From positions 1,378,538 to 1,442,537 of the forward strand of contig MU004235.1 of NCBI GenBank assembly GCA_010405405.1: a stretch of DNA of 64,000 nt. The letters run 5' to 3'. Of the stretch, positions 11,157 through 63,700 are shown piece after piece (positions within the stretch are counted from its first letter, which is position 1; each line of letters opens with the position of its first letter). The translations under genes were made by a program, and so were the position numbers. The DNA comes from Microthyrium microscopicum. Its lineage: Eukaryota. Below the pieces are notes generated by a model. That model made no database searches. It saw nothing but the letters and a program-made list of their open reading frames with translations, and had not been told where the DNA came from.

Positions 11157-11970
11157 GCGAGTGGACTTGTATATTAGGTGTGAACTGTAAAGGGGTGGTG
11201 GGTTGATGAAGGTACTTGGTAAGAAGGAAGGAATTCGCCACTCTGATAGGCTTGGTGGCTTGATACCAAGAGAATGAGCATACAGGAAGCATTGAAATGT
11301 TTGTATTTATTTGTCAATCTGATTGTTCTATAAACATTTGGTGGAGCTGCCAATATTGGAGACCTTGATACATGTATCATTGTGTACTGTGAAGCTACTG
11401 AGTAGTATATATCAAAGATTTAAATCCCCGAAGAACAGGAGTTAGCTGCAACTTAACACAGTTAGAAATATTAGAGCTCCTCTTTCACTTTTATATAATT
11501 CAAAGGGACAAGTTTCATCCATCTCAGATTTTAGAGCTCTCAGATGCTTTGAGGTCGATTTATATGACAGGGATTCCTGGTTCAGCGCAGGCGACCAAAC
11601 CAACGTCACCCAAACTTGACATGAGCTACTCCACCACCATCCATCAACCTCCATCTCTAAAACACCTACAACCTACAACTTCACGCCCTGAGCTTCTACT
11701 TCTTCCACCTTCTTCATAGAATCAGAAAAGAAAAGGTCACTAAGCTTGGGTTACCTTAGGCCCCTACTACGTGACCGCATCCTCACCCATTTCTATTGCT
11801 ACCGGGCTCTTCGCCGTTGCCTCCTCAAACCAAAACCTCCACAACCTTCGACTGCTAAACCTACTGCTCGACATTTTGCCAACAAGCCTACAGGCCAGCG
11901 TTCTACCACAAGTCCCCCTACTGCCAAGCGCACAGCACAACGAGAATATCCTGACAGACCACGCGCAACG

Positions 11971-13079
11971 ATGGTAAATCCTCACTGCTGATAGTACCAA
12001 CGTAGCATCTGACAATATCACAGTACCGCGCAACAGATTTCGATCCATCGGATCCAATGTCCATGTACCAGGCCGCCATGCGCAATGGTCGAGGACGCAA
12101 CTTCGACGAATACTTCCGATGCTACCCCATTGCCATGCTGCCAGGTCCCGATCGTCCAGATGCGAACCACGGCGGCAAAGTCTTCCTACCACCCTCGGCC
12201 CTTGACAAACTCACGCGGCTACACATTACATACCCTATGCTCTTTGAGCTCAAAAACAACAAAGTGAAGACTCAAACACATGCGGGTGTCTTGGAGTTCA
12301 TCGCCGAAGAAGGAAAGATCTATCTTCCGTACTGGTTGATGCAAACCCTCGTCCTTGAACCAGGCGATCTCGTACAAGTTCAAAGCACCGACCTGCCACT
12401 GGGCACATTCATCAAGCTCCAACCTCAAGATGTTAGCTTCCTTGATATCTCCGATCCAAAGGCCGTCCTTGAAAACGCCTTCCGCAACTTCGCATGTCTC
12501 ACCACTGGCGATACCTTCACATTCTCATACAACGATACGACATATAGCATAGCTGTGCTCGAGACGAAACCGGAAAACCCGAAGAACGCGATATGTACAC
12601 TAGAGACCGATCTGAGCGTCGATTTCGCACCACCAATAGGCTACGAAGAGCCAAGTCGGAAAACTAGCGGGACCAGCACGCCCCGTAGCATGACCGGTGG
12701 TCTCGCAGGCAAAGGTGGTGTAGTACACGCGCAAGGCTCCATGGCTCAGGCCATCAACTACGCGTCAATCGCACCATCAGCTCCCGGCGCACCCGTTGCG
12801 TCAGTCCATTTCTCTGGCTCGGGTAATCGGTTAGCGCCGCGCAAAGGCAAGGCTGCTGCTTCGCGGTCAGAGACGCCTGTGGATACACCAAAGAGTGCGC
12901 CGCCGCGGGCAGTGAATGGCCCTCAGCCGTTGAGATTGGGACCGGGGAAATTGTTCTTTGGCTATGCGGTCACGCCGGTCAAGAAGAAGGAGGATGGAGA
13001 GGCGGAGAAAGAGAGCGTGCATTTCGCTGGCTCAGGGCAGACTTTGCGGAAAAAGAAGGGTGATGGGAAAGATAAATAG
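11971..13079 (+). CDS. UFD1: Ubiquitin fusion degradation protein Ufd1
   Basis: FDEYFRCYP, GGKVFLPPSALDKLTRLHITYPMLFEL, THAGVLEFIAEEG and C-terminal SHP-like boxes FSGSGNRL/FAGSGQTL. Probable ATG-only first exon 11971-11973, intron 11974-12023. An in-frame ATG at 12057 is an alternative start. Confidence 0.93.
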
Positions 13080-13536
13080 ACTCCGCGTTATGAACGAGAC
13101 GTTTTGGTGGGTGGTGGGAATACCCCGTGGATTAGACCATTTTGTTATGAATTGAGTTATGAGCATAATTGTTGGGACAAGATGATAGCAATAATGCCCT
13201 TCCCCTCGCGATACGGAATTTTCCAGGACTTTCAACTGTTCAAAGTTCTTTTTACCAGGCTCGGCCTAACTTATATCGCCAACCAGGTTTGCAATAATGA
13301 ATACGAGGATACAATTAGCAGCATTCGGCCCCTTTATATAAATATCCGCACCCTGTAAGCAGATCTTATATCGGCCATCATACTTCCATGGTCAACATCA
13401 TTCTATGTAAAGATCGAGCGATCGCAATAACTCTACATATATGGGAACGATAACAAAGAACTGATCTCAGATCTCTGCGGCTATTCCAATATTCTCCTGA
13501 TTTTGGCGTTGCAATAGCGCAGTAATTGTATTCCTG

Positions 13537-15014
13537 ATGCACGCCATTCTTAGCCCTATTAGCCTTTTTCTACTAACCTCCATCGTCCTTTCATCAATCC
13601 TCGCCGCACACACTCGTAAGTCCTTCTCCCTTTCCATCCGAATTTCCCGCAACTAACGCTGACTAGTAGAACCTCTATCACCACCGCCCAGATTTCAACC
13701 CCGTTCTCCCCAGCTTGGAGCCGCCGTAGATGGCCTAGTAGGCAGTCTAGGTTCCTTAGTTTCTGGGCTAGGTTCAGGCCTCGCTACAACGCTCGACTGC
13801 TCCCTAGGGGCACTCTTCGGCGGTTGTAAAAAAGATAAGCCTGGTATTTTAGGCGCAACTGTTAATGGATTGGTGGGTGGTCTTGGGGGTATTGTCAGCG
13901 GTGTTGGGAAGGGACTTGGAGGGACTTTGGACGGGGCTTTAAGTCCGTTGGTCGGGAAAGGCAAGAACGCAACAAGGAAAGATGAGGGAAAGGATAAGGG
14001 GAGGTTACATCCGAGGAATGCAAAGGCAGAGCCACAACTTGGTGATGTGCTTGGTGGACTTGTGGGTGGACTGGGTAGTATCGTTGGAGGCTTGGGTACT
14101 GGACTGGGAAATACGTTGAGTGGGACTTTGGGACCTCTTTTGGGCGGGAGTGGTTCTGCGCCGAAGGCTTCGTCGACTCCACGACCAGTACCGAGACCGG
14201 AAATTAGACCGGAGCATAGCAGTAGGCCTTCGCCTAGGCCTGAAGGTAGACCAGACCGTAGGCCAGAGCAGGATCAACGTCCCGATGGACGGCCACAGCA
14301 ATCCAGTTACAGGAACGAAAAGAAGGCCTCTGTAACCATCACGACTGCCAGAGATTCAGTTTACTGCCGCAAGAATCCAGATACCATCAGCACAGACACA
14401 GACGTCCTGCCGATATATCCCCTCTCGTCGAAAATACAAGTCCGATGCTGGAGTTCACCTTCGATTTCAGGAAATAGTGGACGTGTAGATGGAGAATCGA
14501 TATGGCTACAGACTGCTGAGGGCTGTTATATCAACAAGGCCGAAGTTAGACGAGGCGAGGTTCGTGGCGAGTCTCGTGGCGAGTCTCGTGGAGACGATGC
14601 ATTCCAATCTATACTGAACGAGTGCCCACCGAAGAAACGCTGGATTGGTATGCTTCAAAGCCAGTATTCCCGAGCAGACTGCTATGATTGTCCGAGCCTT
14701 GATTGTCCTTCGACGAATGTTCGTACTGGATATGTTGATGTTGTTTGTGGTGCAAAGGGAGAAGTTGTTAGGGGTGATGATGTAAGTTCTTCGCGAATTA
14801 TTCTTCGGCCGACTTGTATGGTCTCATCAGATATCCAGCCACAATGAGAGGATATTCAACTGACAAGTTCACAGAGATGGTATCGTAGCAGCCAGCGGTG
14901 CTTTTTTCCTGCTGCTGTGTTTAACCCAAATGGATGGCTCGGTGAGTTTTGGCGCACTATCTGCTTGGTGTACGATACTGATATCTTTCAGGGACGCCGG
15001 GTCAAAGTTGTTGA
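13537..15014 (+). CDS. Secreted protein: signal peptide, 3 Gly/Leu amphipathic repeats, Arg/Pro linker, 2 Cys-containing SH3-like cell-wall-binding domains
   Basis: Exons 13537-13615, 13667-14781, 14875-14941 and 14992-15014, with canonical introns, in frame. The N-terminus MHAILSPISLFLLTSIVLSSILA is a signal peptide. Ends ...GTPGQSC*. Confidence 0.8.
14554..14595 (+). repeat. 12-bp coding tandem repeat (GEVR-GESR-GESR-GD)
   Basis: ggcgaggttcgt ggcgagtctcgt ggcgagtctcgt ggagac read directly. Confidence 0.85.
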
Positions 15015-15590
15015 ACGAGGTTCTAGCCATGGCTACCTGACTGCGCTTGAAAACACATAGTGAATATGGCTGTCTTCGGCGTGTCTGATATCGATCAGCC
15101 GCCGGCTCAATTTCTAGTGACTGGCAGACATTATAGTCGCAACTGGACAGCAAAGCAAAAGATCGGAGGCGAACGGCTGGTGATTTAGACACGAGATGAA
15201 ATGGATGAGTAGAAGAGAGGTGCGTAGTGGTGATGAGACGAGAACTATCAGATCCGCATCTCACGTTGAGAATACAACTTGATGTCATTATTCAGGATCT
15301 ACCATACGCAGTAACGCAGAGTGTGAAAGATACCTATCGGCAGCCGCAGCATCGTCATATTTTGTATTCCACGATGGAAAGCAATCTTGCTCACAACGTC
15401 ACTAGATCTATATGACTGCCTTTCCACATGTTGGCGGAAGGCTTCCTACAGGAACCATCCTTCTAGAAGGTTATCAGATTACAACTGGGAACGCAATCAA
15501 CCATTCCAAAGCAAACATGTAACTGTGCTATATTCCGCTGTATCACAGGTGTGGCCACTTCTTCCCCGTGATAAAACTCCAACTTTCCAC

Positions 15591-28847: not shown

Positions 28848-30216
28848 ATGTCGACACTAGGATGCGATGAAAACCACCTTCTGTGTTCAGTTCTGAATAC
28901 AACGACACTTGCCTCAACTTCATTCTGTATACATGCACATCAATTTACCTGCGGTCTATATCCACAATGCGAGTGTCCAAGAATCACCGCCGATCCGGAT
29001 ATCGCTGGGAGGGGGGTAAGAATGACAATCCAGATGTCGTCAAAGCTTCAACTCACAATACACAGATGATACTGGCCTTTGTCGCTTCAGCCGCTTTAGT
29101 TCTCGTCATATCCATGATATGTCTCATCCTCCACCCGTCCAACAGGCATAGATGCGCCAATCCCTTCGATCGCTTCTTTCGCACCTATCTCTGCCTCCCC
29201 ATCCAACGCCGCATTGGTTTCGAAAAAGCAGAAAACTGGGCGTCTTCCATATTTGCCATGGTAATAACCATCAGCGACCAGCAGTCCATCACCGGCATCG
29301 CCATACTCGCTGCAGCCATCCACTCGCTTGCCGTACGCTCCATCACGGTGTACCACTTCAATATCGTGACGGACATGGGCTGGTTCAGCTCCAACATACA
29401 CCTGCTCTCGCTGTGCGTCATGCGCCACTTCCTAGATGCTAGAGGGACGGACTTCATCTCGGAACTCAAGGCGGTCGGCGTTATTCCAAGAACACTTCGC
29501 ATCCTGTCCATGTTAACGCTAGCAGTACTTCTACTACGCTGCGTAACAGTCTCCGGCTACGAACTCTGGAACGACAAACAAAACTGCCCAGCAACATGCG
29601 TCACCGGCGGAAAGCGCGCAGGCTGGCCATTCAAGCAGATGATAGTAACTTACGTCTTCGTCATCCAAAGCTACAGCGTACAAATAATACGCGTCATACC
29701 GCCCATAGTACGAGCCTGGAATACGTCCTGCCAGCCATGGGTTCAAAGCTTCGATCAGTCAATGGCAGGTAGAGTCTACGGAAGAAAGGGGCTGAGTGTG
29801 CTGTATTCTGTGTCGAGAGACTTGGTGATGCTGGTGTTTTACTTCTTCACGTCAGATTTTGAGTTTATGCTGGAGATGGTGGCGTGGTTTGTGCTTGGGT
29901 TGTATTGGACGTTTACAGACCGGCTGAGTGGGCATAAGAATATGGATCATGATGATGTTGTCAAGGAGAATCAGGTGGGTTTTGGGCAATTGGTGCCGAT
30001 CTTGCTGTTGGCGTTGGCTGGATTGGCTATGATGGAGGCATATTCTTGTGAGTTTGAAGTGCCGATTCTTTTAGTCTTACTGACATTGATCTAGATCGAC
30101 CATCCAGGCAGCAGATGCTGAAGAAACGAGAACCTTCCATCTCCTCTATCGAAATTGAGGATATCAATTTGAAAAGCTTCGAAGCTCAGCATGAAGCTCG
30201 ACCTTCAGGAACTTGA
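28848..30216 (+). CDS. Fungal-specific multi-pass (~7-8 TM) membrane protein of unknown function
   Basis: Exons 28848-29015, 29066-30047 and 30095-30216. Motifs DPDIAGRG|MILAF, SDQQSITGIAIL, YHFNIVTDMGWFSS and GFGQLVPILLL recall a widespread uncharacterised Pezizomycotina family. The start codon is uncertain. Confidence 0.75.
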
Positions 30217-44806: not shown

Positions 44807-46456
44807 CTATTTGCCTTCTACTTCGTCCAAGAGTCCTTGGAGGTTGATACTCTTTGGTCGCTCGATAGGGAGGCCGAGCGCACGATCCCAGATCAATTGG
44901 GCGAGTGGGCCGAGACCACGGGACACGCCGAAGGTTGCGGTATAGTAGAGCATTTCCTTGAAGCCGTAGTAGTGGAAAAGCACACCAGAGGAGGAGTCGA
45001 CGTTGGGGTATGGGTTCTTGGTCTACATCATACGTTAGTGGACAGTCTCGTGGAAGGCGGATAGAATGCTTACCTTTCCGTGCTCCTTGAGTACATCAGG
45101 AGCAATCTCAGAGTTCTTCTTGACGAGCTTGAAGATAGGATCTTCAGCAATCTTGGGCCGAGCAGCCGCATAGTCCATCAACGCATCGAAGCGAGGATCT
45201 GGTTGACGCAATACTCCGTGACCATAACCAGGTACTACACGACCAGACTTTAGTGTCGTCCAGAGGTATTCCTTGACATCCTTATCACTGTAGCCTTCAG
45301 GCATGGAGTCCTTCATCTGAATAATCCATCTGAGCACTTCCTGCGCCGCAAGACCGTGCAATGGACCCGCTAGACCTTGCAGACCAGCCGAGTACGACAA
45401 GAATGGATCAGAGAGCGCTGAGCCAACAAGATGAGTCGCATGTGCGGAAACATTGCCACCTTCGTGGTCACCGTGGAGCGCGAGGTAGAGACGGAGCAAG
45501 TCCTGGAAATCTTCATGCTGTTTGCCGCCTTTGCCGAGCATGGCGGCGAAGTTGTATGCCCAATCTTGCTCTGGGTCTGCTTTGGCTGGGAGTGCTCCAC
45601 CTCCTTCATATGCATTTTGGTAGATCTTTGCGGCGATGGTGGGGAGTTTGGCTAGTAGGCTGATGCTGTCGTCAAAGGTTGGTTCCCAGTATTCAGCCTT
45701 GTTGAGACCCTTTTCGTATGCCTTTGCGAAGAGAGAGGTGTGGTTTAGGGCGGAGACTGCAATAGCGAATTGGGTCATGGGATGGAGATCGGTTGGGAAG
45801 GCGTCCATCATCTTATTAACGAACTCTGGCAGTTCTGATTTCTCAGCCAACTCGCGAGAGAGTACGCGGACCTGGCTGGTGCTGGGGACTTCGCCAGTGA
45901 GGAGCAGCCAGAACATGGCTTCTGGTAGCATTTCTGTGCCTGAAGTTCCCTTTGGAAGCTCCTTTTGGCAATCCTTGATCGTTCGGCCATGGAATCTGAT
46001 TCCCTCATTGGCATCTAGAACTGAACCTTCCCATACCATAGCCTTGAGGCCCCTGAAAGTTGGTAGTCAGCCTTATTGTCAGCTGCAGAATAGGGATGGA
46101 ATCGTACCGCATGCCACCCAAGGCATTCTCAACCTTGACAACACCGATTTGCTTATCGCCATGTGCTTTGACTTTCTTTAAAAGTTCTCGTTTGGCGGGT
46201 ATTAATCCTTTTAGAGTCTCCTTGAGATTTGGTTCTGAGGAAGCGGAATAGTTCCGCTTGAGCTCCCAAGCTGCAGCTGCACGTCAATTAGCGATGATCT
46301 CTGAGGGGCAGTTCAACGGTTTTCGTACCAGGTACAGAAGACTTGACAGCTGTTGGCTACACACAACAATTAGAGCTTTTCTACAGATGATCTCACCACA
46401 AAACTTACGCGAACAGCTCTCAGAGCGCGTGAAGCTGATCTTGGAGCCAAAGCCAT
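44807..46456 (-). CDS. mcsA: Mitochondrial 2-methylcitrate synthase
   Basis: Citrate-synthase fold motifs ([29 protein letters not shown]), with LHGLAAQEV rather than the LANQEV of ordinary fungal citrate synthase. Presequence [16 protein letters not shown]. Four introns; adjacent to methylisocitrate lyase. Confidence 0.9.
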
Positions 46457-46709
46457 TGTGAGTGAAGTGGGGCTGTTGATCAGAGGAGAGGGGTAGAGAC
46501 AGGATCAATAGAGACAAATACAAGCAAGACAAGACACCAAGGAGGTCACAAAGCAGAAAGCTGGATGTGTGAGGGCAATGGTCAGTATTTTAAAAGATTG
46601 AGAACCGGCTATGTACGGCGAGAAACAGACTGCATTGTTGCATTGGCTCTGGATTGTTGTTCCTGACCATGCCTAGCCATCAGCTCATGGTTTTCCCCTT
46701 GAGCCGCCC

Positions 46710-46790
46710 CCGAGGTCGGCAATCGTCTCAGCGGAAGTCTTTACGCGATTCTATCTCTCCCCAAGCCCGACCAAGAACCTGTATCCGAGG
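46710..46790. promoter_or_regulatory. Two CCGAGG elements (FarA/FarB, Ctf1-type consensus) in the mcsA-mclA divergent promoter
   Basis: CCGAGG at 46710-46715 and 46785-46790. Confidence 0.55.
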
Positions 46791-47078
46791 ACTTGTCTAT
46801 AATCTTCCATTTATTTTCGAAAAGCTAGCATTACAAACATTGTAGAAATTAGTTGCAAAACCCATCTTTTGTGGCAAATCTCGTCACTTCAACGGCTTCA
46901 TTCCACCGCGACCGCTTTGTGACCTCAGTCGTAAATCGCATAAAACACCGTCAGCAGCCGACGGTTGCCGTATACATTTGATCCCAGCTTAGTACAATCA
47001 TACATACGCTGTGATTCAAGATCTTATACCTGTTACGTGCTCCTTGAGCATTGTAAACCTTCATATACTTCATTCACA

Positions 47079-48905
47079 ATGCTTCGGCCTGCTTTAAGAG
47101 CCGTAGCTCGCACTCGACGCGTTCCTTCTCAACTCTCACGATCCCTGACCACCACCGCCGTTCTTAGAATGCCAACCACTCTTTCTCCCCCAACCGCGCC
47201 ATTAAACACTCCTCTACCGTCCGACTCCTTTCACCTACTTCCTCAATCATCTAAAGCTGGTGCCGCTGAAGATGCACTATACAATGCCCAAATACAAGCC
47301 GTCAAAGAATGGTGGGCAAGTCCGAGATACAAGGACATCAAACGACCATATTCTGCAGAAGATGTTGTCTCGAAACGAGGCACATTACAACAAGTATACC
47401 CATCCAGTGTGATGGCACGAAAACTATGGGAGCTGTTCCAAAAACGTGCGGCGGAAGGAAAGCCAGTGCATACAATGGGAGCCATTGATCCTGCTCAGAT
47501 GACTCAACAAGCACCAAATCAAGAAGTTTTATATCTTTCCGGATGGGCATGCAGCTCTCTCTTAACATCCACCAACGAAGTCTCCGCGGACTTTGGTGAC
47601 TATCCATATAACACCGTACCAAACCAAGTACAGCGCATGTTCAAAGCCCAACAACTTCACGACCGCAAACAATGGGACGAGCGACGAAAAATGACCGCTG
47701 AAAAGCGTGAAAGTACACCATACACTGACTATCTCCGACCTATCGTAGCAGATGGTGATACTGGGTAAGCTCCTTCACTACCCCCATTCGTAAACAAGTA
47801 CTAACATGTTCCCAGCCATGGCGGTCTAACAGCCGTAATGAAACTATCCAAACTCTTCGCCGAAAACGGTGCCGCCGCAGTCCACTTTGAAGACCAACTC
47901 CACGGCGGCAAGAAATGCGGCCATTTAGCCGGCAAAGTGCTCGTGCCTATCCAAGAGCACGTCAACCGGCTCGTCGCCGCACGCTACCAATGGGATATCA
48001 TGGGCTCCGAAAACCTCGTCATTGCACGCACTGATTCCGAAAGCGGAAAGTTACTTTCCAACGCCATCGACGTACGCGACCACGAATTCATCCTCGGCGT
48101 CAACGAAGAAACCTCCCCACTAGCAGAAACTCTACAAGCCATGGAGCTCAAGGGCGCCACAGGTGAAGAAATCGACGTATACGAAGCACAATGGGTAAAG
48201 AAGCATAAACTCGTAACCTTCGACGAAGCAGTAACTCTACACCTCCAAAAAGAAGGCTCCAGCCCAGACGAGTACCTAGCCAGCGTCAAAGCCGATCCAA
48301 ATCTCTCCCTCCCAGCACGTCGACAATTAGCGGCCAAATACACGAAAACACCTGTCTTCTTCTCCTGGGACATCCCACGTACCCGCGAAGGCTACTACCA
48401 CTACCGCGCCGGCGGACCCGCCGCCATAAAACGCGGCATCGCGTTCGCGCCCTATGCAGATCTCTTATGGGTCGAGACGGGTACACCATCCGTCGAAGAA
48501 GCGCAGACACTTGCGCGTGCGATCCGCGCGGAAGTGCCAGGGAAACAACTTGTGTATAATTTGAGCCCGAGCTTCAATTGGATGGCATCTGGTTTCACAG
48601 AAGAGACGCTCAAATCCTTCGTATGGGATTTGGCGAAGGAGGGATTCGTGTTACAGTTGATATCACTGGCTGGTCTACATAGTAATGCGGTGGCAACGCA
48701 TGTGTTGAGTGGCGCGTTTAAGGAGGAGGGTATGTTGGCGTATGTGAATCTAGTGCAGAAGAAGGAGAAGGAGAGTGGTTGTGATGTTCTCACGCATCAG
48801 CGGTGGAGTGGTGCTGGGTTGATTGATGGCATGGTTGGTGCTGTGCAGAGTGGAAGTAGCAGCGCGAAATCGATGGGTGAGGGAAATACAGAGAATCAAT
48901 TTTAA
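47079..48905 (+). CDS. mclA: Mitochondrial methylisocitrate lyase
   Basis: ICL-family [17 protein letters not shown] and LISLAGLHS match the methylisocitrate-lyase type rather than GWQ/FITLAG of isocitrate lyase. Arg-rich presequence. Intron 47765-47815. Confidence 0.92.
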
Positions 48906-60818: not shown

Positions 60819-63700
60819 ATGGCTGAAGAAGAACATCATCCAGTCAAACTATCGTTACCGCTTGTATGTGCAATGCGACAAGCTCTGGAGATTCGCCACT
60901 GATTTCATCCGTAGGAGTTCCAGCAAGACATTTTCCAGGAAATTCGAGCAGAAGATGAACTTCTCATCATCGCCAAAGGGTTGGGCCTGCTGAGGATAGT
61001 GACAAATCTACTTCATTCCTATGATGCCGCTGGCAACAACCTCATCATCATCGTTGGTGCCAACGACCGCGAAAATGGCTGGATTGGCGAATTTCTTGCT
61101 GAACATGCCACCATCTCCAAAGCGCCGAAAGCGCGCGGCCTGAGCTTGGTGAATACTCAAATGGCCAGTTTGGTGTCGCGACAGAAGTTGTATGCGCATG
61201 GTGGTATTCTCAGCATCACCTCTCAGATTCTAATTGTCGATCTACTTTCTGGCGTACTGCCGCCTGGAAATGTAACTGGTATGGTCGTGCTGCATGCTGA
61301 GCGAGTGTCGGCGACTTCTATCGAATCTTTCGTTCTCCGCGAGTATCGCCAGCACAATAAGGTTGGCTTTCTCAAGGCTTTCTCGGATAGTCCAGAGTCG
61401 TTCACGTATGGCTTCTCTCCGCTGGCAACTATGATGCGGAATCTCTTTCTGCAGAAAACGTTGTTGTATCCTCGTTTTCAACTCGACGTCATCAAGTCTC
61501 TTGAAGGCCAGAAGAAGGCGGAGGTGATCGAGCTGGAGGTGCCCATGACGGAATCCATGGCGACAATTCAAGCAGCAATACTCGAATGCGTGGAAGCTAG
61601 TGTCAGTGACCTCAAAAAAGGTAATACAGGGTTAGATATGAGCGACTGGAATCTCGACAACGCGTTGCAGGGCAATTTCGACCAGAGAGTGATGCGACAA
61701 CTCAATCCAGTGTGGCATCGTCTACATCCTCGTACAAAACAAGTGGCCGCGGACTTGAGAACTCTTCGCTCCATGCTGTCGTACTTGGTCACATTTGACC
61801 CGGTACAGTTTTTGAAATATCTCGATACTGTACTTGCTGCGTCGCAACCGAAGAATCCGAACAGCAAGGCGAATCAGTCTCCTTGGCTGTTCTTGGATGC
61901 GGCTACAACTATTTTTGAGACAGCAAAACAGCGAGTCTATGCCGGCAAAATGGTCGATAATGGACCTCCGCTGAACAAAGCAGCGACGGAGGCTATTCGT
62001 CCAACTCTTGAGGAACTCCCCAAATGGGTTGTTTTGAGCGAAGTCCTGGATGAAATTGAGCGCGACGTATATTTCAATCCAGTTGTAGACGATTCCAGTG
62101 GTTCCATTATGATCATGTGCAGCAATCATGAGACGTGCGCCCAACTCAAGGAGTATCTCAAACGCAGACAGCTAGTCGAAGATGCAGAGGACGAGGAATC
62201 TGAGCCCCATTTCGCAGCAAGCTTTATGCTGAAGGACAAGCTGCGGAGCTATATCTACTGGAAACGGGCGTTCGCCAAGATGAATGACTCTTTGAAAGCA
62301 GATGTCGCGCAATCCATGGAATCGAAAGGCGAAGCTCAGCGCGACGCCCCTCGTCGAGGGCCACCAAACAAGCGGCGAAGAGTCCGCGGCGGCGCGGCTT
62401 CTGCTAGTACTGCAAGCCGAATCGAGACTTCGAGGACTGCCGGCGACAAGGAAGCGCATCTGGCCAGCTTGCTTGAAAATGAAGTGCAAGCCGTGGGTGC
62501 TGATGGTCTGCCTGAAGAAGAAGTTGTTGTAGATCCGCTAAGCGACAAAGACACATACTTCGAATTGCTCGAGATGCAAGACCTGATTATCGTTCATCCC
62601 TATGACGGCGACATCGACGAGCATGCGATTGAAGAAGTGCGCCCGCGCTATGTCATTATGTATGAACCAGAGGCTGCATTCATACGGCGAGTGGAAGTGT
62701 ATCGCAGCTCGCATACGGATCGGAATATTCGCGTGTACTTCATGTACTACAAAGACTCCGTGGAGGAGCAGATGTATCTTGCTTCGGTCCGCCGAGAAAA
62801 AGATGCATTCACTAAGCTCATCCGCGAGCGAGGAGTAAGTGGCCACAAAAATATGATGATGTTTCGGAGGCTAACGACGCGGCGTAGAACATGGCGATCA
62901 CGATTGATAATGCCAAACTTGATCCCGAAGAGGCTTTCTTGAGGACTATCAACACCCGTATTGCAGGTGGCGGCCGAGTAGCTGCTGCCACCGCCGAGCG
63001 GCCTAGAGTTGTGGTCGACACTCGAGAGTTTCGTTCCTCGCTGCCGTCGCTTGTCAACGCGCGTGGAATGGATGTTGTTCCCTGCATGTTGACCGTGGGT
63101 GATTATGTCCTGACGCCAGATATTTGCGTCGAGCGCAAGTCCATCAGTGATTTGATTGGCTCGTTGAACAACGGACGATTGTTTAACCAAGCAGAGACGA
63201 TGCTGGAGCATTACAAATTTCCAATGCTACTGATAGAGTTCGACCAAACGAGAAGCTTCACGCTCGATCCGTTCACTGACTTGTCGGCTGGTCCACAGAG
63301 TGCTTTGTCCTCTGCGCCAGACTTGCAGTCGAAGATTGTGCTTTTGACTCTCGCTTTTCCCCGAATGCGCATCATTTGGTCGAGCTCGCCGTATCAAACG
63401 GCCGAGATTTTCGAGGAGTTGAAAAAGCTGAACGACGAGCCAGATCCGCGCAAAGCTGTGAATATGGGTATACAAGAAGGTGATGATGCGGAGACAGTGC
63501 GTCCATTCAATCAACTTCCCATAGACATGCTTCGAGAGATTCCAGGAATCAACGAGAAGAACATCACTCGACTAAGCTTGGATATTACCAATATCCATGA
63601 GCTGGCGAATTACGAAGAAGACGATATTTGCGCAATGGTAGGTCGTGAAGCTGGTCGCCAGATCTATCGGTTCTTCAACCGAAATATTGGCCGAGACTGA
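60819..63700 (+). CDS. RAD1: XPF/Rad1/Rad16 structure-specific DNA repair endonuclease
   Basis: Helicase-like N-terminal half, VEEQMYLASVRREKDAF, ERCC4 nuclease motifs VVVDTREFRS and VGDYVLTPDICVERKS, and an HhH motif (IPGINEK). Introns 60864-60914 and 62835-62887. Confidence 0.96.

What the first reader, a model, noticed from the sequence alone, without database searches (positions are those of the whole stretch)
13690..14150. Three amphipathic Gly/Leu repeats with Kex2 + Ste13-like processing signals exposing N-terminal Gln
Seen: FQPR-SP-QLGAAVDGLVGSLGSLVSGLGSGLATTLDCSLGALFGG; KK-DKPGILGATVNGLVGGLGGIVSGVGKGLGGTLDGALSPLVG; LHPR-NA-KA-EP-QLGDVLGGLVGGLGSIVGGLGTGLGNTLSGTLGPLLGG. Hydrophobic residues recur every 3-4 positions. 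Known: Kex2 cuts after dibasic and some LxxR/PR sites, Ste13 trims X-Ala/X-Pro dipeptides, and N-terminal Gln can cyclise to pyroglutamate. Repeat precursors such as Ustilago Rep1 and Candida Ece1 release amphipathic peptides by Kex2 cleavage. Inference: repeats 1 and 3 would both mature to QLG..., suggesting released glycine-zipper, repellent-like or pore-forming peptides.
Basis: partly seen in the sequence, partly recalled or inferred. Interest (0 to 1): 0.7.

Follow-up and report, generated by a model that had tools for sequence, protein, structure and literature searches.

The report
Fungal peptide precursor with wall-binding domains
This fungal gene encodes a secreted protein whose water-repellent glycine/leucine helices look set to be cut out and capped during secretion, and which ends in two enzyme-less domains related to those that guide fungal lysozymes to bacterial cell walls, an undescribed combination that may act at bacterial or other surfaces.

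Summary
The three repeats are real and lie in exon 2 of a spliced four-exon gene (13537-15014, 427 aa; all three introns skipped in one contig). The processing idea passes its own test. In the window and seven homologues, 11 of 11 readable sites keep Arg, then 1-5 X-Ala/X-Pro dipeptides, then Gln, and the genome encodes kexin, DPP-IV and glutaminyl-cyclase homologues. Corrections: the KK between repeats 1 and 2 is weak and not conserved, so repeat 2 is probably not freed alone; the R-xP-Q mark also occurs in relatives without repeats; the helices are neutral or acidic 11/3 helices, unlike cationic lytic peptides. Best reading: a KEP-like polyprotein giving two pyroglutamate-capped amphipathic products, plus a tandem SH3-like module that is freed or stays tethered to repeat 3. 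Cleavage is inferred, and function is untested. New variant of a known kind; interest 0.5.

The parts
13537..13615 (+). Exon 1: start codon and signal-peptide-like N-terminus (residues 1-26)
   Evidence: Gene model; highest 19-residue hydropathy window of the protein starts at residue 4, 2.18. No signal-peptide predictor was available.
13616..13666 (+). Intron 1 (51 nt, GT..AG)
   Evidence: Skipped in contig of run X1; this fixes the acceptor at 13666
13693..13710 (+). Processing site 1: FQPR (putative Kex2 site, R39), then one X-Pro dipeptide (SP)
   Evidence: Sequence; equivalent sites in P0002, P0004, P0005
13711..13827 (+). Repeat 1 (Q42-C80): Gln-initiated amphipathic Gly/Leu helix with a Cys71-Cys80 pair (inferred disulfide)
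   Evidence: Cys pair also in P0002, P0004, P0005, P0006, absent in P0003
13828..13845 (+). Repeat 1/2 spacer with KK; probably not cleaved
   Evidence: No dibasic pair at this place in P0002 or P0003, RR in P0004-P0006; Kex2 P1 is almost always Arg (PMC8528282)
13846..13959 (+). Repeat 2 (I87-K124)
13960..14004 (+). Basic spacer; holds the only N-x-S/T sequon (N127) and a possible minor TR site
14005..14034 (+). Processing site 2: LHPR (LxxR-type Kex2 site, R143), then NA-KA-EP dipeptides
   Evidence: Equivalent RR + 3-5 dipeptides + Gln in P0002-P0007
14035..14148 (+). Repeat 3 (Q150-G187): Gln-initiated, the best conserved repeat
   Evidence: 21-29 of 38 residues identical in each of 7 homologues
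14149..14325 (+). Pro/Arg-rich linker in which most Arg are followed by Pro, ending in KK just before the SH3 pair
   Evidence: 9 of 11 Arg followed by Pro; 13 of 16 in P0002. KR or RR at the same place in P0002-P0008.
14341..14625 (+). SH3-like cell-wall-binding-type domain 1 (Cys260, 287, 313, 346; Arg261)
   Evidence: phmmer to PDB 8b2f E 9.5e-4; family profile E 4.2e-8; homologue model Z 11.0, rmsd 1.5 A over 72 residues to 8b2s
14635..15011 (+). SH3-like domain 2 (split by introns 2 and 3; six Cys)
   Evidence: Homologue model residues 141-213 align to SH3b domains, e.g. 6ilu Z 6.7 and 9ovi Z 6.5
14782..14874 (+). Intron 2 (93 nt)
14942..14991 (+). Intron 3 (50 nt)
15012..15014 (+). Stop codon

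Best explanation
A secreted polyprotein. Shown: the spliced gene model, three conserved 38-residue repeats with 11/3 amphipathic periodicity, the SH3-like homology of the C-terminal pair and the absence of a catalytic domain. Inferred: after the signal peptide is removed, Kex2 cuts after R39 and R143, a Ste13/DPP-IV-type enzyme trims SP and NA-KA-EP and stops at Gln, and the Gln cyclises to pyroglutamate. This gives product A (Q42 to about P142: repeats 1+2, a C71-C80 disulfide and a basic tail, about 9.5 kDa, net +4) and product B (Q150 onward: repeat 3 plus the Arg-Pro-shielded linker). A site just before the SH3 pair is KR/RR in the homologues and would free the pair; here it is KK, so product B may stay attached to the pair. 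Most likely job (weakest step): the helices adsorb to hydrophobic surfaces or membranes and pack on each other through their Gly flanks, while the SH3 pair binds bacterial wall peptides, so that the products coat, glue or perturb bacterial surfaces near the hyphae. My odds: processing as described about 0.75; a bacteria-directed surface function about 0.35.
For: Register kept at 11 of 11 readable sites; for the four longest informative lineages the chance that a shuffled spacer keeps the register is 0.024-0.05 per site. P0095, a more distant relative with one shorter repeat, has LERR directly before Gln. Three or more dipeptides before Gln occur twice in 11,903 residues of window ORFs, once here. 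The genome has kexin (PDB 2id4 E 2.6e-173), a DPP-IV homologue with an N-terminal hydrophobic stretch and a glutaminyl-cyclase homologue. In 21 full repeats from 7 proteins G8, G14, L24 and T27 are invariant, best angles are 96.5-98.5 degrees, and GxxxG counts 102 against 75+/-6 in shuffles. The multi-repeat proteins plus one truncated one form a single branch in the SH3 tree (96/89). The four Cys and the Arg that contacts triglycine in the T. saccata domain are kept in domain 1. Precedents: Hum3 (Kex2 repeats plus hydrophobin) and the C. cinerea pyro-Q peptide released from a GH128 protein.
Against: No protein-level evidence of cleavage exists. FQPR and LHPR are non-canonical (Pro at P2), and good-looking Kex2 sites are not always cut (PMC2515848). 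The site before repeat 1 in P0002 has Pro right after Arg; in P0003 it is cut off upstream and the visible dipeptides do not end at Gln. R-xP-Q also follows the signal peptide in relatives with no repeat (P0012, P0021, P0025, P0027, P0033), so it marks pro-peptide removal generally. Sites were picked by pattern and P0004-P0008 are close kin, so the register statistics are not independent. Neurospora glutaminyl cyclases are in the ER, upstream of Golgi Kex2, so the pyroglutamate step may be spontaneous or partial. Peptidoglycan binding by this SH3-like domain class rests on a triglycine complex and on domain context, called a hypothesis in the passages read; here the domains are only about 24% identical in the structural alignment, and the model was of homologue P0010. 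The full-length model had mean pLDDT 40.5.
Confidence: 0.5

Rival explanations
1. Repellent-like coat: the released helices assemble into surface-active fibrils on the fungus's own hyphae or spores, as Rep1 peptides do, and the SH3 pair binds a fungal or plant surface ligand or is incidental.
For: Repeat length (38 aa) is within the Rep1 range of 34-55 aa, amphipathic and nearly uncharged; Hum3 shows Kex2 repeats fused to a surface domain.
Against: Only 3-4 repeats, not each flanked by a Kex2 site; periodicity is helical (about 97 degrees), with lower moments at 160-180 degrees (0.15-0.30 against 0.35-0.41 at 100 degrees for the window's repeats); Rep1 lacks the STE13 signature. No repeat-only relative was found.
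Confidence: 0.2
2. The repeats are just one version of a variable low-complexity N-terminal stalk of a tandem-SH3 family; only the pro-peptide is removed and the repeats stay attached as spacer or oligomeriser.
For: Most of the 88 profile hits have the SH3 pair behind unrelated Pro/Gly/Ala-rich N-termini; the R-xP-Q mark is family-wide (8 of 31 rows with a hydrophobic N-terminus, 1.3 expected).
Against: A second, internal Arg-dipeptide-Gln site is kept in 7 of 7 readable proteins; repeat 3 is 55-76% identical across homologues while domain 1 is 38-45% and the linker 12-51% (low complexity inflates the first and last figures).
Confidence: 0.15
3. The Gly-rich repeats are ligands or chaperones of the protein's own SH3-like domains (self-binding that holds the helices soluble or the domains latent until cleavage).
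For: The homologous T. saccata domain binds triglycine in its specificity zone; repeats and SH3 pair stay together in one branch.
Against: Most family members have the pair without repeats; the repeats look helical, whereas SH3 grooves take extended peptides (established knowledge).
Confidence: 0.08
4. Candidalysin-like cytolytic peptides aimed at eukaryotic membranes.
For: Amphipathic helices long enough to span a bilayer, cut from a Kex2-type precursor; 19-residue hydropathy 1.4-1.5.
Against: Cores are neutral or acidic and almost free of aromatics; no sequence-family hit; the attached domains point to bacterial walls.
Confidence: 0.07

Closest known systems
KEX2-processed repeat proteins (KEPs) with STE13 signature (Le Marquer 2019, PMC6339444; Vogt 2022, PMC9769878)
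   Same: Signal peptide, internal repeats, Arg sites followed by X-Ala/X-Pro dipeptides, Gln-initiated cores that can become pyroglutamate.
   Different: Sites are FxPR/LxPR rather than KR/RR in this protein; not every repeat is flanked; cores are 38-residue helices; a 180-residue folded module follows.
[quoted passage not shown]
   Same: Domain 1 matches by sequence and fold, with the four Cys and the Arg10 equivalent.
   Different: Two domains in tandem at the C-terminus, no catalytic domain; domain 2 has an extra Cys pair and Tyr in place of that Arg. The enzymes in the paper's Fig. 5 legend all carry wall-degrading domains.
Ustilago maydis Rep1 and Hum3 (PMC4617103, table rows read)
   Same: Amphipathic repeats of 31-55 aa with Kex2 motifs; Hum3 also ends in a folded domain.
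   Different: 12-17 repeats, no STE13 signature in Rep1, hydrophobin instead of SH3 in Hum3, basidiomycete. No direct sequence comparison with Rep1 or Hum3 was run.
Candida albicans Ece1/candidalysin (PMC5784256, abstract)
   Same: Kex2-released amphipathic peptide inside a larger precursor.
   Different: Kex2 then Kex1 processing with Arg sites on both sides of the peptide; no SH3 module; the repeats here are Gly-rich and neutral or acidic.
Coprinopsis cinerea protein 365456 (PMC9769878)
   Same: A pyro-Q peptide released by Kex2 from a precursor with a C-terminal cell-wall-related domain.
   Different: One 8-residue peptide and a catalytic GH128 domain.

Membership tests
KEP | N-terminal signal peptide | tested here: met
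   Hydrophobic residues 4-22 by hydropathy only; no SignalP run
KEP | Three or more internal repeats | tested here: met
   Three 38-aa repeats; 3-4 in complete homologues
KEP | Kex2 sites between all repeats (KR/RR/KK in the survey pipelines) | tested here: inconclusive
   KK between repeats 1 and 2 (not conserved); RK and LHPR between 2 and 3; no clear site directly after repeat 3
KEP | Peptides actually released | not testable with these tools
   Needs peptidomics
KEP with STE13 signature | X-Ala/X-Pro dipeptides in register after the Kex2 site | tested here: met
   11 of 11 readable sites
Dikaritin RiPP precursor | UstYa/DUF3328 gene nearby | tested here: not met
   Only one of 22 PF11807 matches is on this contig, about 180 kb away; none among 20 neighbouring window ORFs scanned
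Fungal SH3-like CWBD | Sequence and fold homology | tested here: met
   E 9.5e-4 single sequence, 4.2e-8 profile; Z 11.0, rmsd 1.5 A for the homologue model
Fungal SH3-like CWBD | Two conserved disulfides (Cys9-Cys53, Cys33-Cys72) | tested here: met
   C260, C287, C313 align with Cys9, Cys33, Cys53; C346 is the likely Cys72 equivalent; Cys in 65 of 67, 66 of 67, 70 of 73 and 73 of 73 filled rows. Bonds themselves are inferred.
Fungal SH3-like CWBD | Binds peptidoglycan peptides | not testable with these tools
   Binding assay needed
GH24/GH184 muramidase | Catalytic glycoside hydrolase domain | tested here: not met
   The spliced protein ends with the second SH3-like domain; no Pfam enzyme domain in 74 family members
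Rep1-type repellent | Each repeat released by Kex2, no STE13 signature | tested here: not met
   STE13-type dipeptides present; repeat 1/2 boundary not conserved
Rep1-type repellent | Amyloid-like surface fibrils | not testable with these tools
   Bench assay needed
Ece1/candidalysin | Arg cleavage sites on both sides of the active peptide | tested here: not met
   No repeat has a conserved Arg site on both sides
Ece1/candidalysin | Membrane damage | not testable with these tools
   Liposome or cell assay needed

The most novel reading that the evidence does not exclude
A fungal 'address plus payload' antibacterial: the pyroglutamate-capped glycine-zipper helix (repeat 3) stays tied through a kexin-resistant Arg-Pro linker to, or is co-secreted with, a pair of peptidoglycan-binding SH3-like domains that concentrate it on bacteria, where the helices oligomerise in the membrane. 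The wider catalysis-free tandem-SH3 family, with several paralogues per genome, would then be a bacterial-wall recognition platform with swappable N-terminal cargo.
Probability: 0.17. Interest if true: 0.78.

Novelty: new variant of a known kind. Interest (0 to 1): 0.5.

Why it matters
Each part has a precedent, but I found no description of the combination or of the catalysis-free tandem SH3-like family in ten full-text searches of the open library. It gives exact, testable peptide termini (pyroGlu42, pyroGlu150), shows a Kex2/Ste13 signature on non-dibasic PR sites that dibasic-only KEP screens would tend to miss, and points to an unannotated expanded family (83 SH3-type hits, no meaningful Pfam match) in Venturia, Tothia and Trichodelitschia that may mediate fungus-bacterium contact. 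If the helices prove membrane-active and wall-targeted, it would be a new design of fungal antibacterial.

Tried and rejected
Pfam and NCBIfam: no meaningful family for the repeats or the SH3 pair (PARP, amelogenin, S28e and GsmA hits are far below cut-off or compositional). Repeat-only relatives: none at near length among 2745 candidates, only 3 already-known proteins among longer ones, no atlas hit, no paralogue of the repeats in the genome at E<0.3; these word- and cluster-limited searches do not prove absence. Two apparently bacterial proteins (P0086, P0093) and two others (P0085, P0088) score weakly on the repeat only (E 8e-6 to 6e-4); I treat them as compositional look-alikes. Metagenome locus scan found no confirmed locus, so the N-terminal exons of P0003 and P0006-P0008 and synteny could not be read. 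Full-length AlphaFold model was too poor to use (pLDDT 40.5); repeats came out as helices at only 54-64. Foldseek gave no match at E<=0.001; the VIA search did. Complex prediction of a repeat-3 tetramer was not available, so self-assembly is untested. Motif search in the supplements of two KEP surveys found nothing, but their listed tables appear to hold accessions and expression values rather than sequences, so this is uninformative. No run is on record as RNA; X1 is a guess, supported by four GT..AG skips, and contig depth cannot give expression level. My first gene model used acceptor 13669 (426 aa) and was corrected. A dikaritin cluster was rejected.

Full report
Observation. They are 38 residues long, 22-23 of 38 identical to each other, yet share only 5-11 of 38 third codon positions, which points to old duplicates held at the protein level. 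Their hydrophobic moment at 100 degrees was reached by 9, 0 and 0 of 5000 shuffles.

Gene. The repeats lie in exon 2 of a four-exon gene, ATG 13537 to stop 15014, 427 aa. One contig of run X1 (labelled RNA by guess) skips 13616-13666, 14782-14874 and 14942-14991, all GT..AG, which confirms the model and corrected my first acceptor. It is one contig from one study and says nothing about expression level. Neighbours are housekeeping or metabolic genes: UFD1 and a NIF-domain gene upstream, a GH92 gene downstream. No UstYa gene is near.

The missed half. After repeat 3 come a Pro/Arg linker and about 180 residues with ten Cys. The first half matches only the four SH3-like domain entries of fungal muramidases in the PDB (best 8b2f, E 9.5e-4); a 74-sequence family profile raises this to E 4.2e-8. 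A model of the homologue P0010 (pLDDT 90.7) aligns to 8b2s with Z 11.0, rmsd 1.5 A over 72 residues, and its second domain aligns to bacterial and phage SH3b domains at Z 5-6.7; Foldseek alone gave nothing at E<=0.001. The atlas feature search also returned SH3b-type clusters (0.93-0.94). The Cys pattern and the Arg that binds triglycine in the T. saccata domain are kept in domain 1. There is no catalytic domain.

Family. A word search returned 7 homologues with repeats plus SH3 pair. A profile search of 1.84 billion representatives returned 88 proteins: 4 of those 7, 4 weak repeat-only look-alikes (P0085, P0086, P0088, P0093) and 80 that match through the SH3 part, a few of them classical CWBD enzymes or triple-domain proteins. 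Of 20 looked up, the 8 that carry an organism name are from Trichodelitschia bisporula (4), Tothia fuscella (3) and Venturia effusa (1). The window's genome has five other loci with this SH3 module and none with the repeats. In a tree of 51 rows with at least 120 residues of the SH3 region, the window protein, the 7 multi-repeat homologues and the N-terminally short P0010 form one branch (96/89); proteins with one partial repeat are scattered.

Processing signals. Before repeat 1, the region is readable with an Arg in 4 proteins: FQPR|SP|Q here, and 2, 5 and 2 dipeptides in P0002, P0004 and P0005. Before the last repeat it is readable in 7: LHPR|NA|KA|EP|Q here and RR plus 3-5 dipeptides plus Gln in P0002-P0007. 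All 11 keep the register although spacer length varies. Not counted: P0003 repeat 1 (cut off upstream; its visible dipeptides do not end at Gln), P0006-P0008 repeat 1 and P0008 last repeat (truncated). The P0002 repeat-1 site has Pro directly after Arg, which is unfavourable for kexin (recalled, not from a call). Shuffling spacers keeps the register with probability 0.024-0.05 at the five most informative sites and 0.2-1.0 at the others; sites were pattern-picked and P0004-P0008 are close kin, so these are not independent. P0095 has LERR directly before Gln and one shorter repeat. Pro at P2 and Leu at P4 are accepted by Kex2, and P1 is almost always Arg (PMC8528282, part 1 of 3 read). The genome has kexin, DPP-IV and glutaminyl-cyclase homologues.

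The repeat 1/2 boundary is KK here, has no dibasic pair in P0002 and P0003, and RR in P0004-P0006, so repeats 1 and 2 probably stay joined (Q42 to about P142, 9.5 kDa, net +4). After repeat 3, 9 of 11 Arg are followed by Pro (13 of 16 in P0002), so the linker looks shielded from kexin. Just before the SH3 pair all 7 homologues have KR or RR, but this protein has KK, so here repeat 3 may remain on the SH3 pair. The R-xP-Q mark is also found near the N-terminus in 8 of 31 hits with a hydrophobic N-terminus (1.3 expected; one of the 8 is a Pro run and several of the 31 are not true signal peptides or family members), including five with no repeat: it is a general pro-peptide mark. Neurospora glutaminyl cyclases are ER proteins (PMC5241404 passages), so cyclisation after Golgi cleavage may be spontaneous, although pyro-Q KEP peptides were detected in Coprinopsis (PMC9769878 passages).

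Nature of the repeats. Across 21 complete repeats from 7 proteins the best helical angle is 96.5-98.5 degrees, an 11-residue/3-turn pattern. A narrow aliphatic stripe is flanked by Gly; G8, G14, L24 and T27 are invariant; GxxxG occurs 102 times against 75+/-6 in shuffles; net charge is -4 to +1; aromatics are 2 of 798. This fits helices that adsorb to hydrophobic surfaces or pack closely on each other better than cationic lytic peptides (inference).

Mechanism. Most likely a KEP-like polyprotein that yields two pyroglutamate-capped amphipathic products and a tandem SH3-like module. The gene, the repeats, the conserved register and the SH3 homology are shown. Cleavage, capping, disulfides and ligand binding are inferred. 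I favour action at bacterial surfaces because all enzymes shown with this domain in Moroz 2023 degrade bacterial walls (abstract and passages read), but binding there rests on a triglycine complex, and a repellent-like role or a plain stalk remain open.

Comparison and novelty. It works like a KEP with STE13 signature; strict membership is inconclusive because not every repeat is flanked by a site. It is not a muramidase, not a dikaritin precursor, and fails the defining cleavage layout of Rep1 and Ece1 (Rep1/Hum3 from table rows of PMC4617103; Ece1 from the abstract of PMC5784256; KEP definitions from passages of PMC6339444 and PMC7329392; Kex2 site context from passages of PMC2515848). Ten library searches showed no description of this architecture; subscription papers, patents and the KEP sequence tables that I could not see may hold it. 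The scan's own index had no look-alike by sequence or words. Verdict: real, new variant of a known kind, interest 0.5.

Noticed in passing
window 11701-15528: A single spliced contig of run X1 spans both UFD1 and this gene; only 457 nt separate the UFD1 stop (13079) from this ATG. Overlapping UTRs or read-through are possible, but a contig shows no single transcript.
   Followed up: no
window 14548-14600: A short tandem insertion (RGE[V/S] units ending in RGDD) inside SH3-like domain 1, absent from P0002 and P0003; a second RGD lies at the end of exon 2. Probably incidental.
   Followed up: no
L005-L009 (own genome, contigs C1, C2, C6, C14): Five paralogous loci carry the same SH3-like module behind unrelated low-complexity N-termini; L005 has an ARSPQ motif.
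   Followed up: partly
P0027, P0033: UniRef calls these 'Cyanovirin-N domain-containing protein', but no such Pfam domain was found in any of 74 family members; likely a mis-annotation.
   Followed up: partly
L008, minus strand 260-850: Next to one paralogue lies a gene with several hevein-like Cys/Gly repeats (CSQYGYCG; family label recalled).
   Followed up: no
L005, minus strand 338-900: Tail-to-tail neighbour with Lys/Ala-rich and Pro/Ala-rich low-complexity segments.
   Followed up: no
L003:1432-1935: An unrelated secreted-looking protein with KR-DP-Q after its signal peptide, another instance of the same processing mark in this genome.
   Followed up: no
window 45035-48905: Divergent citrate-synthase-family and isocitrate-lyase-family genes, possibly a methylcitrate-cycle pair (interpretation recalled).
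   Followed up: no
window 28871-30094 and 60915-62942: ORFs of 407 and 675 aa with no Pfam match at E<=0.001.
   Followed up: no
P0086, P0093: Two unnamed, apparently bacterial proteins carry one similar Gly/Leu 11-residue-period helix; convergence or distant kinship is unresolved.
   Followed up: partly
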